Shown one piece after another: positions 30,901 to 33,900 of a stretch of 64,000 nt of DNA. Numbering within the stretch: the stretch's first letter is position 1; each line of letters opens with the position of its first letter. The position numbers are program-made. Origin of the DNA: Escherichia coli (GTDB lineage: Bacteria > Pseudomonadota > Gammaproteobacteria > Enterobacterales > Enterobacteriaceae); assembly GCF_030013205.1 (NCBI RefSeq), contig NZ_CP122648.1; one strand, given 5' to 3'.

Positions 30901-33900
30901 CTGTTAAAAATGTTAATCAATGTTAAGTGAGGTAACAATAGCAAACTTGTACGAAATATGTGTACAGAATGATAAATTAATTTTTTGCATTTAGTGCTAA
31001 TACATATAAAACAACAGGTTATGATAAAAAATATTGCATCATTTAAATGACAACCTATACAAAAATTTTCGCCAACTCATCTTCAACTTTTTCCATTTTT
31101 TATCAATGTAAAGAAACAGTTATGTTTTGGTATTAAAAGAAAGACACCGGAAGATATGTCTGTTACCGTCTTACTCTCGTCTCTCCCATTACCCTGGACA
31201 GTTAATGCTTACCACCCTTATTTATCGTAGCCATATACGTGACGACGAACCTGTCAAAAAAATCGAAGAAATGGTTTCGATAGCAAATCGCAGGAACATG
31301 CAGTCTGACGTAACAGGGATCTTACTGTTTAATGGTTCTCATTTTTTCCAGCTTCTGGAAGGTCCGGAAGAACAGGTTAAAATGATATATCGGGCTATAT
31401 GCCAGGATCCACGGCACTATAATATTGTTGAGCTGCTGTGCGATTACGCGCCTGCTCGCCGTTTTGGCAAAGCGGGAATGGAATTATTTGATTTGCGCCT
31501 GCACGAGCGAGATGACGTTTTACAGGCCGTATTCGACAAAGGCACATCAAAATTTCAGCTAACTTATGATGACAGAGCGCTACAATTTTTTCGTACTTTT
31601 GTCCTTGCAACCGAACAAGCAACCTATTTCGAGATCCCTGCCGAAGACTCCTGGCTTTTTATCGCTGACGGATCTGATAAAGAACTTGATTCTTGTACCC
31701 TTTCACCAACTATAAATGACCACTTTGCCTTTCATCCTATTGTCGATCCCTTATCGCGGCGGATAATCGCTTTTGAAGCCATTGTGCAAAAAAATGAAGA
31801 TAGCCCATCAGCTATAGCGGTTGGGCAGCGTAAAGACGGGGAAATCTACAAAGCGGATCTCAAAAGTAAGGCGCTTGCATTCGCGATGGCACACGCACTT
31901 GAGCTCGGTGATAAAATGATTTCAATCAATCTATTACCTATGACCCTGGTTAACGAACCTGACGCAGTCTCTTTTTTACTTGATGAAATAAAGGCCAATG
32001 CTCTGGTGCCTGAACAAATCATCGTTGAATTTACTGAAAGTGAAGTCATATCTCGGTTTGATGAGCTTGCAGAAGCGATTAAATCGCTTAAGGCTGCCGG
32101 TATCAGTGTAGCAATTGATCATTTTGGCGCAGGTTTTGCCGGTTTGTTACTCCTGTCACGCTTCCAGCCTGACAGAATTAAAATCAGTCAGGAATTGATT
32201 ACCAATGTTCATAAAAGCGGGCCACGGCAGGCAATTATTCAAGCGATCATAAAATGCTGTACATCACTTGAAATTCAAGTCAGTGCTATGGGCGTGGCAA
32301 CACCAGAAGAGTGGATGTGGCTTGAATCCGCAGGAATTGAGATGTTTCAGGGAGATCTGTTTGCTAAAGCTAAATTGAATGGTATCCCTTCCATAGCGTG
32401 GCCAGAGAAAAAATAATTTTCAGCACATTCTTTCACATGATTTCAGTAAATCATCGTGAAAATGAATACGTTATGTTTAAATTTAATCCACATTAAAAAT
32501 AATGTTTCATCCAATTTAGCTGAAATCTTATTTATACTTTGTACAATTTTAGCGTATATTGTACAAAGTATTATTGGGTCGTGTACAGGCGACGGAGATT
32601 TGTGACCGCAAGGAGGAATTGTGGCTTATTACAGCATTGGTGATGTTGCTGAACGTTGCGGGATTAATCCTGTCACTCTCCGGGCCTGGCAACGCCGCTA
32701 CGGTTTGTTAAAACCACAGCGCAGTGAAGGCGGACACCGACTCTTTGATGAAGAAGACATACAACGCATCGAAGAGATCAAGCGTTGGATAAGTAATGGC
32801 GTCCCTGTAGGCAAAGTTAAAGCATTACTGGAAACCACCAGCCAGGATACGGAAGATGACTGGAGCCGCCTGCAAGAAGAGATGATGTCAATTCTTCGTA
32901 TGGCTAATCCTGCCAAACTACGCGCGAGAATTATTTCACTGGGTCGAGAGTACCCGGTAGATCAATTGATTAATCATGTTTACCTTCCTGTTCGCCAGCG
33001 TCTCGTGCTTGATCACAACACCTCCCGCATTATGAGCAGTATGTTTGACGGCGCATTAATTGAATACGCAGCAGCCTCGCTTTTCGAAATGCGCCGTAAG
33101 CCCGGTAAAGAAGCCATTCTGATGGCGTGGAATGTTGAAGAGAGAGCACGATTGTGGCTGGAAGCATGGCGTTTATCATTGGCAGGATGGCATATTTCTG
33201 TCCTTGCTGATCCCATTGAAGCGCCGCGCCCGGAACTGTTCCCGACGCAAACATTGATTGTCTGGACAGGCATGGCACCAACGAGAAGGCAAAACGAACT
33301 TTTACAACACTGGGGTGAGCAAGGTTATAAAGTCATCTTTCATGCCCCCTAATTTCACCTTTATCCCGCCCCTTAGACAGAATCTTATAATCTGAACCCA
33401 CAACAGCGTTTGTACCGGAGCTGGTCCGTTGCAAAATGCTCACCGGGAGAATTCAGGTAATCCCCCTTTCACACTTTGTACATATCACAGCCAAAGGACA
33501 GACCAGATTGAAGTGGTAAAACCGATCGTGCACACTACGCAGTCTCACAACTAACAAGAGGTTATTATCCTGATGGATCAGGTTGTTGTTTTTCAAAAGA
33601 TGTTTGAGCAAGTGAGAAAAGAGCAAAACTTCTCCTGGTTTTATTCAGAATTAAAACATCACCGTATTGCACATTACATTTATTATCTGGCTACGGATAA
33701 CATCAGAATTATTACTCACGATGACACGGTTTTGTTATTAAGAGGAACCAGGAACCTGTTAAAAGTTAGTACGACCAAGAACCCTGCTAAAATAAAAGAG
33801 GCAGCATTGCTTCATATTTCCGGAAAATCTACATTTCGGGAATACTGTTCAACACTGGCAGGCGCTGGCGTTTTCCGGTGGGTTACTGATGTTAATCATA

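What the first reader, a model, noticed from the sequence alone, without database searches (positions are those of the whole stretch)
32535..32570. Perfect 13-bp inverted repeat just upstream of bluR
tactttgtacaat-N10-attgtacaaagta is a long perfect palindrome about 50 bp upstream of the MerR-family regulator gene bluR. It could be an autoregulatory operator or the site of another regulator. The known BluR target is the ycgZ promoter on the other side of bluF, so this would be a distinct site.
Basis: seen in the sequence. Interest (0 to 1): 0.35.

Follow-up and report, generated by a model that had tools for sequence, protein, structure and literature searches.

The report
Likely BluR autoregulatory operator at bluR
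A perfect 14-bp inverted repeat lying on the promoter of the E. coli blue-light repressor gene bluR carries two copies of the motif that BluR is known to bind, and the pair recurs in front of bluR-like genes across enteric bacteria, so it is most likely where BluR represses its own gene: a well-supported but unsurprising and still untested feedback loop.

Summary
The repeat is 14+14 bp (32534-47 / 32558-71, 10-nt gap) and is the only perfect inverted repeat of at least 12 bp in the 64-kb window. Each arm holds the self-palindromic octamer TTGTACAA. The published bluR transcription start (54 nt upstream of the GTG, so 32567) and its -10 (TATATT, 32555-60) put the repeat at -33..+5, covering the core promoter. 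TGTACA/GTACA is the core of the footprinted BluR operator at PycgZ and of the MlrA site at csgD. In 78 BluR-clade loci, 73 have a TGTACA pair about 60-85 nt upstream of the start codon, mostly 19 bp apart. This holds in Enterobacteriaceae and Erwiniaceae, and in one Pectobacterium locus checked separately. The pair is present with or without bluF/ycgZ nearby, and absent upstream of true mlrA orthologues. In a 15-species alignment only the two boxes and the start codon are invariant. Within E. coli the 48-mer holding the repeat is the best-conserved part of the intergenic region. The best explanation is a negative autoregulatory operator for BluR, possibly also bound by MlrA, relieved by BluF. 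Binding is untested. No held paper describes it. It is a new member of a known kind, of moderate interest.

The parts
32534..32547 (.). Left arm of the perfect inverted repeat (ATACTTTGTACAAT); -33..-20 relative to the mapped bluR TSS
   Evidence: I3; TSS from PMC3509220
32548..32557 (.). 10-nt gap between the arms (TTTAGCGTAT); holds the first three bases of the -10 hexamer; carries the only within-repeat polymorphism seen in E. coli (T32550C)
32558..32571 (.). Right arm (ATTGTACAAAGTAT); -9..+5, covers the end of the -10 and the transcription start
32539..32546 (.). Left TTGTACAA box (TGTACA core 32540-45, -27..-22, inside the promoter spacer)
   Evidence: half-site matrix T-TGTACA-A from 146 half-sites
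32559..32566 (.). Right TTGTACAA box (TGTACA core 32560-65, -7..-2), 20 bp from the left box
32555..32560 (+). bluR -10 hexamer TATATT; its last T is the first T of the right TGTACA
   Evidence: TTTATA-18-TATATT; 7 nt upstream of the published TSS; named as the -10 box of the bluR promoter in bioRxiv 10.1101/2025.10.20.683477
32531..32536 (+). Candidate -35 hexamer TTTATA (18-nt spacer); overlaps the outer end of the left arm
   Evidence: consensus scan only, inferred
32567..32567 (+). bluR transcription start (54 nt upstream of the GTG), from primer extension in K-12
   Evidence: PMC3509220; K-12 sequence identical here; the same counting convention reproduces a sensible -10 for ycgZ
32582..32587 (.). 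Third TGTACA (+16..+21), 22 bp after the right box; polymorphic in E. coli (TGTAGA in ATCC 25922 and strain 3-72), so probably dispensable
32621..33352 (+). bluR (ycgE): MerR_1 + MlrA_helical + MlrA_C, 243 aa, GTG start
31205..32416 (+). bluF (ycgF), BLUF-EAL antirepressor of BluR, upstream on the same strand
30948..30966 (.). Known BluR operator in PycgZ: TGTACG-N7-TGTACA (13 bp start-to-start); boxes at -26..-21 and -39..-34 of the ycgZ TSS
   Evidence: footprint, EMSA and in vivo point mutants in PMC3509220
33473..33482 (+). Solitary third copy of ACTTTGTACA in the bluR-ycgX intergenic region; no partner box; relation to the operator unknown

Best explanation
The palindrome is an operator for the BluR/MlrA type of regulator placed on the bluR core promoter, and it most likely mediates negative autoregulation of bluR. 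Two BluR DNA-binding domains, from a dimer or higher oligomer held together by the MlrA-type C-terminal domains, would each contact one TTGTACAA box. One box lies in the promoter spacer (-27..-22) and the other between the -10 and the start site (-7..-2). Bound protein would exclude sigma70 RNA polymerase. BluF, which removes BluR from DNA under blue light and cold, would then derepress bluR together with ycgZ-ymgABC. The resulting rise in BluR would restore repression, giving a negative feedback that also keeps BluR, which is toxic when overproduced, at a low level. Shown: the sequence anatomy, the position relative to the published TSS, the identity of the core motif with experimentally defined BluR and MlrA sites, and the cross-species conservation. 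Inferred: that BluR binds here, that binding represses, and the feedback logic.
For: (1) Perfect 14-bp arms, unique in the window and not expected by chance. (2) The arms span -33..+5 of the bluR promoter (TSS 54 nt upstream of the start codon; -10 TATATT; K-12 identical). (3) BluR protects GTACA...GTACA / TGTAC...GTACA at PycgZ, point mutations there abolish binding and repression, and BluR also binds the MlrA site AAAGTTGTACA(12N)TGCACAATTTT at csgD (the sites verified in sequence). One PycgZ box lies at -26..-21 in an 18-bp spacer, essentially where the left PbluR box lies (-27..-22). (4) 73 of 78 BluR-clade loci have a TGTACA pair (at most 1 mismatch) within 150 nt upstream of the start codon. 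In the other ~509 kb of these loci there are 96 pairs. I count only about seven of them from the listing as lying outside the ycgZ-bluF intergenic region, where the known operator lies. Spacing is 19 bp in 47 loci, 13 in 10, 18 in 6, 20 in 4. (5) In a 15-species alignment with 42% mean column identity, only the two boxes and the start codon are invariant. (6) The pair stays with the regulator gene in two different genomic contexts: ycgZ<>bluF-bluR in Enterobacteriaceae and Pectobacterium, and next to yehW with no bluF or ycgZ in Erwiniaceae. It also occurs upstream of family members only 45% and 39% identical. The only constant neighbour is the regulator gene. (7) The N-terminal DNA-binding domain (residues 1-43) is almost invariant across the clade, matching the invariant TGTACA. 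(8) In the Enterobacter cloacae complex the site upstream of bluR is TATACA-N7-TGTACA, the same 13-bp architecture as the validated E. coli PycgZ operator. (9) In E. coli the 48-mer holding the repeat is identical in 4593 of 4972 records, against 3043-3514 for three flanking 48-mers, and 210 further records differ only by a SNP in the gap. (10) Overproduced BluR is toxic, which gives a rationale for tight self-limitation.
Against: No binding or expression experiment exists for this site in anything I could read. The 2012 study tested only PycgZ and PcsgD fragments. The 2009 Genes Dev paper, which might contain a ycgE::lacZ test in a ycgE mutant, is not held. The box spacing here (20 bp) differs from the only validated BluR operator (13 bp) and from the MlrA site (18 bp), so affinity for BluR cannot be assumed. 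MlrA has an identical recognition-helix region and could be the binder. TSS positions outside E. coli are unknown, so promoter overlap elsewhere is assumed. The E. coli population data are not independent samples, and in six divergent strains the absence of changes in the arms is not significant on its own (about 1.8 expected).
Confidence: 0.7

Rival explanations
1. The site is bound mainly by the paralogue MlrA, or by both proteins, so it is cross-regulation of bluR by the curli regulator rather than autoregulation.
For: The MlrA site at csgD is TTGTACA-N12-TGCACAA with AAAG/AAAA outer flanks, close to ACTTTGTACA-N14-TGTACAAAGT here. The helix-turn-helix regions differ at only four residues, and BluR binds the MlrA site, so reciprocal binding is plausible.
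Against: The pair is also conserved in Erwiniaceae, where the gene itself occupies the mlrA position next to yehW, and upstream of distant family members. There the simplest reading is again self-regulation. True mlrA genes have no such site. MlrA is known as an activator acting from far upstream, not from a site over the core promoter.
Confidence: 0.12
2. The palindrome acts at the RNA level: a hairpin in read-through transcripts from bluF that terminates or stabilises the bluF mRNA and so separates bluF from bluR.
For: The RNA folds into a 14-bp stem, -17.9 kcal/mol, z = -3.4. bluF and bluR are reported to be transcribed independently. No other terminator-like site lies between them.
Against: The stem is AU-rich with a 10-nt loop and no U-tract, so it is not terminator-like. 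Across species the sequence TGTACA is conserved rather than the pairing: mean arm extension beyond the core is only 1.6 nt outward and 1.0 nt inward. The site persists where the upstream gene is divergent. The bluR mRNA starts inside the right arm, so it lacks the hairpin. No Rfam family matches.
Confidence: 0.04
3. The conserved boxes are bound by an unrelated, unidentified regulator, or are simply promoter elements (for example TACAAT in the left box acting as a -10), with no BluR-family involvement.
For: TACAAT lies in the left arm and, on the other strand, in the right arm, and consensus scans pick up promoter-like pairs using it. At PycgZ of other species a third TGTATA box coincides with the probable -10, so box-like sequences can be promoter elements.
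Against: The base after TTGTACAA is not conserved (T 0.40, A 0.32), so TACAAT is not what is conserved. The mapped TSS fits TATATT, not TACAAT. In these loci the motif occurs almost only at the two promoters linked to this regulator, and it is the motif experimentally shown to bind BluR.
Confidence: 0.1

Closest known systems
BluR (YcgE) operator in the ycgZ promoter of E. coli (Tschowri et al. 2012, PMC3509220)
   Same: Same core motif (TGTAC/GTACA), same locus, overlaps a promoter with an 18-bp spacer, and one box at practically the same position (-26..-21 versus -27..-22). A repressor-type location.
   Different: The boxes are 13 bp apart at PycgZ (over the -35 and spacer) and 20 bp apart here (spacer and -10/TSS). 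PycgZ is sigmaS-dependent and PbluR sigma70-dependent. The PycgZ site is footprinted and mutationally validated; this one is untested. The arms here form a much longer perfect palindrome.
MlrA binding site upstream of csgD: AAAGTTGTACA(12N)TGCACAATTTT, idealised AAAATTGTACA(12N)TGTACAATTTT (Ogasawara et al. 2010, as quoted in PMC3509220 and PMC9662190)
   Same: Two TTGTACA(A) half-sites in inverted orientation with A/T-rich outer flanks, nearly two helical turns apart. Bound by the closest paralogue, and weakly by BluR.
   Different: N12 (18 bp) versus N14 (20 bp). The csgD site lies far upstream of the promoter and activates; this one covers the core promoter. mlrA itself has no such site upstream.
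Class II LitR operators of Pseudomonas (PplR1, PmlR2): T(G/A)TACA-N12-TGTA(C/T)A (PMC9758184)
   Same: The same hexamer pair. The sites overlap the -35 or lie just after the TSS of light-induced genes. The repressor is released by a separate blue-light photoreceptor acting as antirepressor. BluR's DNA-binding domain is most similar to the solved LitR/CarH domains (3WHP, 5C8D; E about 7e-14).
   Different: N12 rather than N13-N14. Those regulators have a B12-binding-type domain rather than MlrA_helical + MlrA_C. The photoreceptor is LOV rather than BLUF-EAL.
Classical MerR autoregulation at the merR/merT divergent operator (my own knowledge of the MerR family; Brown et al. 2003 as cited in PMC3509220)
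   Same: A MerR-family protein binding a GTAC-containing dyad that overlaps its own promoter and represses it.
   Different: The MerR dyad is compact (about 18 bp), centred in a 19-20-bp spacer, and switches to activation by DNA distortion. Here the dyad is 38 bp, centred near -14, reaches +5, and the spacer is 18 bp. BluR is described as a repressor only.

Membership tests
BluR/MlrA-type operator (paired TGTACA boxes) | Two TGTACA/GTACA-containing half-sites | tested here: met
   TTGTACAA at 32539-46 and 32559-66; matches the footprinted motif
BluR/MlrA-type operator (paired TGTACA boxes) | Half-site spacing equal to a validated site (13 bp at PycgZ, 18 bp at csgD) | tested here: not met
   20 bp in E. 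coli. Orthologous sites are mostly 19 bp, but 13 bp in the Enterobacter cloacae complex and 18 bp in Klebsiella, so spacing is evidently flexible.
BluR/MlrA-type operator (paired TGTACA boxes) | Specific binding by purified BluR or MlrA (EMSA, footprint) | not testable with these tools
   No experiment found in the held literature
BluR/MlrA-type operator (paired TGTACA boxes) | Co-occurrence with a BluR-clade regulator across genomes | tested here: met
   73 of 78 BluR-clade loci; 0 of 3 MlrA loci plus E. coli mlrA; only about 7 stray pairs elsewhere (my count from the listing)
Negative autoregulatory operator | Site overlaps the regulator's own core promoter or TSS | tested here: met
   Arms at -33..+5 relative to the TSS 54 nt upstream of the GTG; the TSS is taken from the literature, not measured here
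Negative autoregulatory operator | Promoter activity rises when the regulator is removed or the site is mutated | not testable with these tools
   Needs a bluR promoter fusion in a bluR null; not found in the held papers
LitR/CarH-family light-response operator | T(G/A)TACA-N12-TGTA(C/T)A | tested here: inconclusive
   The hexamers match exactly; the gap is N14 here and N13 in most orthologues, not N12
LitR/CarH-family light-response operator | Regulator with a LitR/CarH-like DNA-binding domain | tested here: met
   Best PDB matches are 3WHP and 5C8D, E about 7e-14, ahead of MerR 5CRL at 2.5e-5. The C-terminal domains differ: MlrA_helical and MlrA_C.
Canonical MerR-type activator operator | Compact dyad centred between -35 and -10 in a 19-20-bp spacer | tested here: not met
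   18-bp spacer, dyad centre near -14/-15, 38 bp long, reaching +5
Intrinsic terminator | G+C-rich stem, short loop, U-tract | tested here: not met
   3 G-C pairs out of 14, 10-nt loop, 4 T in the 8 nt after the stem; the scan found none
Known RNA family (Rfam 15) | Match to a covariance model | tested here: not met
   Nothing overlaps the palindrome at E <= 1

The most novel reading that the evidence does not exclude
The TGTACA-pair operator in front of the regulator gene is an ancestral, family-wide feature of MlrA_C-domain regulators. BluR kept it, and the Enterobacteriaceae MlrA lineage lost it. In Erwiniaceae the gene at the mlrA position next to yehW is more BluR-like (62-67% identity) than MlrA-like (53-56%) and still carries the site, as do family members at 45% and 39% identity. 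This would mean that BluR, not MlrA, is the conservative copy of the duplication, and that the E. coli blue-light and cold circuit contains an unrecognised BluF-sensitive negative feedback on BluR level.
Probability: 0.45. Interest if true: 0.5.

Novelty: new member of a known kind. Interest (0 to 1): 0.4.

Why it matters
BluR's described regulon has a single direct physiological target, the ycgZ-ymgABC operon, plus residual non-physiological binding at csgD. A second, self-directed operator would add a feedback loop to the BluF-BluR blue-light and cold pathway that feeds into Rcs and curli control. It would explain how a toxic repressor is kept low. It predicts that bluR itself is induced by light and cold. 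The comparative set of more than 70 natural sites with spacings of 13 and 16-21 bp gives a ready-made series for working out how MlrA-type regulators, whose oligomeric DNA-binding mode is unsolved, read paired TGTACA boxes. The contrast with mlrA, which lacks the site, bears on the published proposal that BluR arose from a duplicate of MlrA. None of this overturns current understanding: autoregulation is common in MerR and LitR regulators.

Tried and rejected
- **Terminator or RNA hairpin:** the fold is stable but not terminator-like, and across species the sequence is conserved rather than the pairing. Rejected as the main function.
- **Known RNA family:** none overlaps the palindrome.
- **Canonical MerR activation geometry:** it does not fit, given the 18-bp spacer and a dyad centred near -14.
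- **A matching site upstream of mlrA:** absent in K-12 and in three orthologue loci.
- **Literature search for BluR/YcgE autoregulation, a bluR promoter operator, or ChIP/SELEX data:** nothing relevant. One search was swamped by the English word 'blur'.
- **Tschowri et al. 2009 (Genes Dev):** could not be read.
- **A 'triple box' at PycgZ of other species (TATACA-19-TGTACA-13-TGTACA):** I first took it as further operator evidence. In ycgZ sense the third box reads TGTATAACTT and probably is the -10, so I do not count it.
- **The third TGTACA at 32582-87:** it is polymorphic within E. coli, so it is not treated as part of the core site.
- **Errors corrected along the way:** a first tblastn used bluF in the wrong frame and was redone. 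I initially mis-indexed the TGTACA cores by one base; this was corrected.
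Full report
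**Observation**

The window is E. coli. The bluF-bluR intergenic region is found in 4,970 of 5,426 complete genomes. From the palindrome to the bluR start codon it is identical to K-12 MG1655. The reported repeat is present at the stated coordinates. It is one base longer per arm than described: ATACTTTGTACAAT (32534-47) and ATTGTACAAAGTAT (32558-71), 100% complementary, with 10 nt between them. It is the only perfect inverted repeat of at least 12 bp with a gap of at most 20 in the 64-kb window. Markov resamples gave 0.06 per sequence for >=12 bp and none in 100 for >=14 bp. Each arm contains the self-palindromic octamer TTGTACAA, and these are the only two copies in the window. The TGTACA cores are at 32540-45 and 32560-65, 20 bp apart. 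A third TGTACA follows at 32582-87.

**Position relative to the promoter**

Tschowri, Lindenberg and Hengge 2012 (PMC3509220) mapped the bluR 5' end by primer extension to 54 nt upstream of the translational start. They state that bluR is transcribed independently of bluF by sigma70 RNA polymerase. With the GTG at 32621 (243-aa product, as in the paper and in RefSeq) the start is 32567.

- Seven nucleotides upstream lies TATATT (32555-60), paired with TTTATA (32531-36) at an 18-nt spacing in the consensus scan.
- A 2025 preprint that uses the bluR promoter as its worked example also names TATATT as one of its PWM-predicted -10 boxes.
- The same counting convention applied to ycgZ (36 nt) gives a sensible -10 (TATTGT) and places the footprinted boxes over the -35 and the spacer, as the paper says. 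I therefore trust the convention.

The palindrome therefore spans -33..+5. The left box sits in the spacer (-27..-22), and the right box sits between the -10 and the start (-7..-2). A protein bound here would occlude RNA polymerase.

**What recognises TGTACA**

- The same paper footprinted BluR on PycgZ over 'GTACA...GTACA / TGTAC...GTACA'. Point mutations there abolish binding in vitro and repression in vivo.
- In the window that site is TGTACG-N7-TGTACA at 30948-66. Its boxes lie at -26..-21 and -39..-34. One box therefore occupies practically the same promoter position as the left PbluR box.
- The paralogue MlrA (49% identical, four differences in the helix-turn-helix) binds AAAGTTGTACA(12N)TGCACAATTTT upstream of csgD, and BluR binds that site weakly. 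I verified the sequence in K-12.
- Class II LitR regulators of Pseudomonas bind TGTACA-N12-TGTACA and are released by a LOV photoreceptor.
- By sequence, BluR's DNA-binding domain is closest to solved LitR and CarH (3WHP, 5C8D; E about 7e-14), well ahead of MerR itself.
- Pfam gives BluR the architecture MerR_1 + MlrA_helical + MlrA_C.

**Comparative evidence**

A profile of 16 BluR-like proteins retrieved 80 loci from one-genome-per-species contigs.

- **Frequency of the pair.** Together with the window, 73 of 81 loci have a TGTACA pair (at most one mismatch in total, 12-22 bp apart) within 150 nt upstream of the start codon. The first box is typically near -80.
- **MlrA loci lack it.** Three of the eight loci without a pair are true MlrA orthologues: 71-80% identical to MlrA, and all three next to yehW, two of them also next to btsS.
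- **The other five loci without a pair.** Two have bluF abutting bluR with no intergenic space. Two carry a recognisable pair with two mismatches. One has nothing.
- **Background.** Elsewhere in about 509 kb of these loci there are 96 pairs. I count only about seven of them from the listing as lying outside the ycgZ-bluF intergenic region, where the known BluR operator lies.
- **Spacing.** 19 bp in 47 loci, 13 in 10 (Enterobacter cloacae complex and Kosakonia cowanii; the same architecture as the validated PycgZ operator), 18 in 6, 20 in 4, 16 in 3, 17 in 2 and 21 in 1.
- **Half-site.** A matrix from 146 half-sites gives T-TGTACA-A with almost no information in the flanks. E. coli has the longest symmetric extension: 6 nt outward and 2 inward, against means of 1.6 and 1.0.
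- **Phylogenetic footprint.** In a 15-species alignment with 42% mean column identity, the only invariant columns are the two boxes and the start codon.
- **DNA-binding domain.** The first roughly 43 residues of the protein are nearly invariant across the clade.

**Context**

- In Enterobacteriaceae, and in one Pectobacterium brasiliense contig found by exact-protein look-up, the gene order is ycgZ <- -> bluF -> bluR.
- In most Pantoea and Mixta loci and some Erwinia loci there is no bluF or ycgZ. The gene lies convergent with a yehW homologue, the position mlrA occupies in E. coli, behind a divergent XRE-type regulator. These proteins are 62-67% identical to BluR and 53-56% to MlrA, and they keep TTGTACAA-19-TTGTACAA.
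- Two more distant MlrA_C proteins also have the site: CAACTTGTACAA...TTGTACAAGTTG at 45% identity, and TGTACA-19-TGTCTA at 39% identity.
- An MlrA-type representative and two usp-linked representatives do not.
- E. coli mlrA has no pair upstream.

The site therefore travels with the regulator gene rather than with any neighbour. This is the signature expected of autoregulation.

**Within E. coli**

- Six divergent strains show 13 variable columns in the 204-bp intergenic region. None is in the arms and one is in the gap. The third TGTACA is TGTAGA in ATCC 25922 and strain 3-72.
- The 48-mer containing the repeat is identical in 4,593 of 4,972 records, and 210 more carry only the gap SNP.
- Three flanking 48-mers are identical in only 3,043, 3,514 and 3,471 records.
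- These records are not independent samples, so this is supportive rather than decisive.

**Rivals**

- **RNA hairpin.** A hairpin in read-through bluF transcripts is thermodynamically plausible (-17.9 kcal/mol, z -3.4). However, it lacks a U-tract and a G+C-rich stem, and pairing beyond the 8-bp boxes is not conserved. The site also occurs where the upstream gene is divergent. It matches no Rfam family.
- **Canonical MerR activation geometry.** The dyad is not centred in a 19-20-bp spacer, so this is not met.
- **MlrA as the binder.** I cannot exclude MlrA binding instead of, or as well as, BluR.
- **Promoter elements.** That the boxes are merely promoter elements is unlikely. The base that would complete TACAAT is not conserved, and the mapped start fits TATATT.

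**Mechanism proposed**

BluR binds the two boxes and represses its own sigma70 promoter. BluF, which pulls BluR off DNA under blue light and cold, derepresses bluR together with ycgZ-ymgABC, giving negative feedback. BluR overproduction is toxic, which makes self-limitation sensible. The variable spacing (13 and 16-21 bp) suggests flexibly tethered DNA-binding domains, as in CarH/LitR, rather than the rigid coiled-coil MerR dimer. That last point is inference only.

**Novelty**

I found no held paper describing autoregulation of BluR/YcgE or an operator at PbluR. The 2012 study tested only the PycgZ and PcsgD fragments. The 2009 Genes Dev paper could not be read, so prior evidence cannot be fully excluded. 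Autoregulation by MerR/LitR-type repressors is a familiar arrangement. I rate this a new member of a known kind, of moderate interest. The more novel reading is that the operator is ancestral to the MlrA_C family and was lost by Enterobacteriaceae MlrA, making BluR the conservative paralogue. That reading is compatible with all the data but needs a rooted phylogeny and experiments.

Noticed in passing
window 33473-33482: A third exact copy of ACTTTGTACA (the outer 10 nt of the palindrome arm) lies alone in the bluR-ycgX intergenic region, about 91 nt upstream of the ycgX ATG, with no partner box 13-22 nt away. Six of the nine TGTACA hexamers in the 64-kb window fall within 30961-33482.
   Followed up: partly
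window 34297-34806 (-) and 27675-28948 (-): An IS200/IS605-type TnpA ORF lies between ymgL and icd, where K-12 and strain MEI4BO-21 have ymgK and iraM. An IS2-like orfA/orfB pair abuts a truncated pdeG-like ORF (28992-29390). No e14 prophage lies next to icd in this strain.
   Followed up: no
L081 (E. coli MEI4BO-21) 2248-3053: An IS1 insertion with an adjacent deletion removes the 5' part of pdeG, ymgC-ycgZ, bluF and the palindrome. Homology to the window resumes at 32568, one base after the mapped bluR transcription start, so bluR there has lost its native promoter and operator.
   Followed up: partly
L011 about 2880-2900; also L014, L015, L020-L026 and other Pantoea/Erwinia loci; L092: A second conserved palindrome, ATCTCATATATGAGAT-like, lies about 35 nt upstream of the TGTACA pair in Erwiniaceae, next to a divergent XRE-HTH/cupin regulator and a GNAT acetyltransferase. 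It is probably that regulator's own operator.
   Followed up: no
L008-L010, L012, L023, L031, L040-L058 and others, about 12-30 nt after the right box: Many non-E. coli Enterobacteriaceae share a 5'-UTR motif TT(A/G)GTTAG(G/T)TT(T/G)AG downstream of the operator. E. coli and the Citrobacter youngae group lack it. Its function is unknown.
   Followed up: no
ycgZ-bluF intergenic regions of L008-L073; window equivalent 30929-30934: Most species have TTGTACA-N7-TGTACA-N13-TGTATA upstream of ycgZ. The third element reads TGTATAACTT in ycgZ sense and probably is the sigmaS-type -10; E. coli has CTATTGT there. Several species also have an extra TGTACA pair nearer the bluF start (for example L013 and L018 at -1424), which might place bluF, and bluR where the two genes abut, under the same control.
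   Followed up: partly
window 32558-32587 (- strand): The consensus scan reports a promoter-like pair on the minus strand (TGTACA-18-TACAAT) built from the third box and the right arm, pointing back towards bluF. There is no evidence that it is used.
   Followed up: no
L092 2200-3719 and L093 2288-3721: Distant MlrA_C regulators that keep the TGTACA pair are followed, on the same strand, by SnoaL-like, short-chain dehydrogenase and amine-oxidase/DAO-type genes. This suggests that in those organisms the site controls an operon led by the regulator.
   Followed up: no
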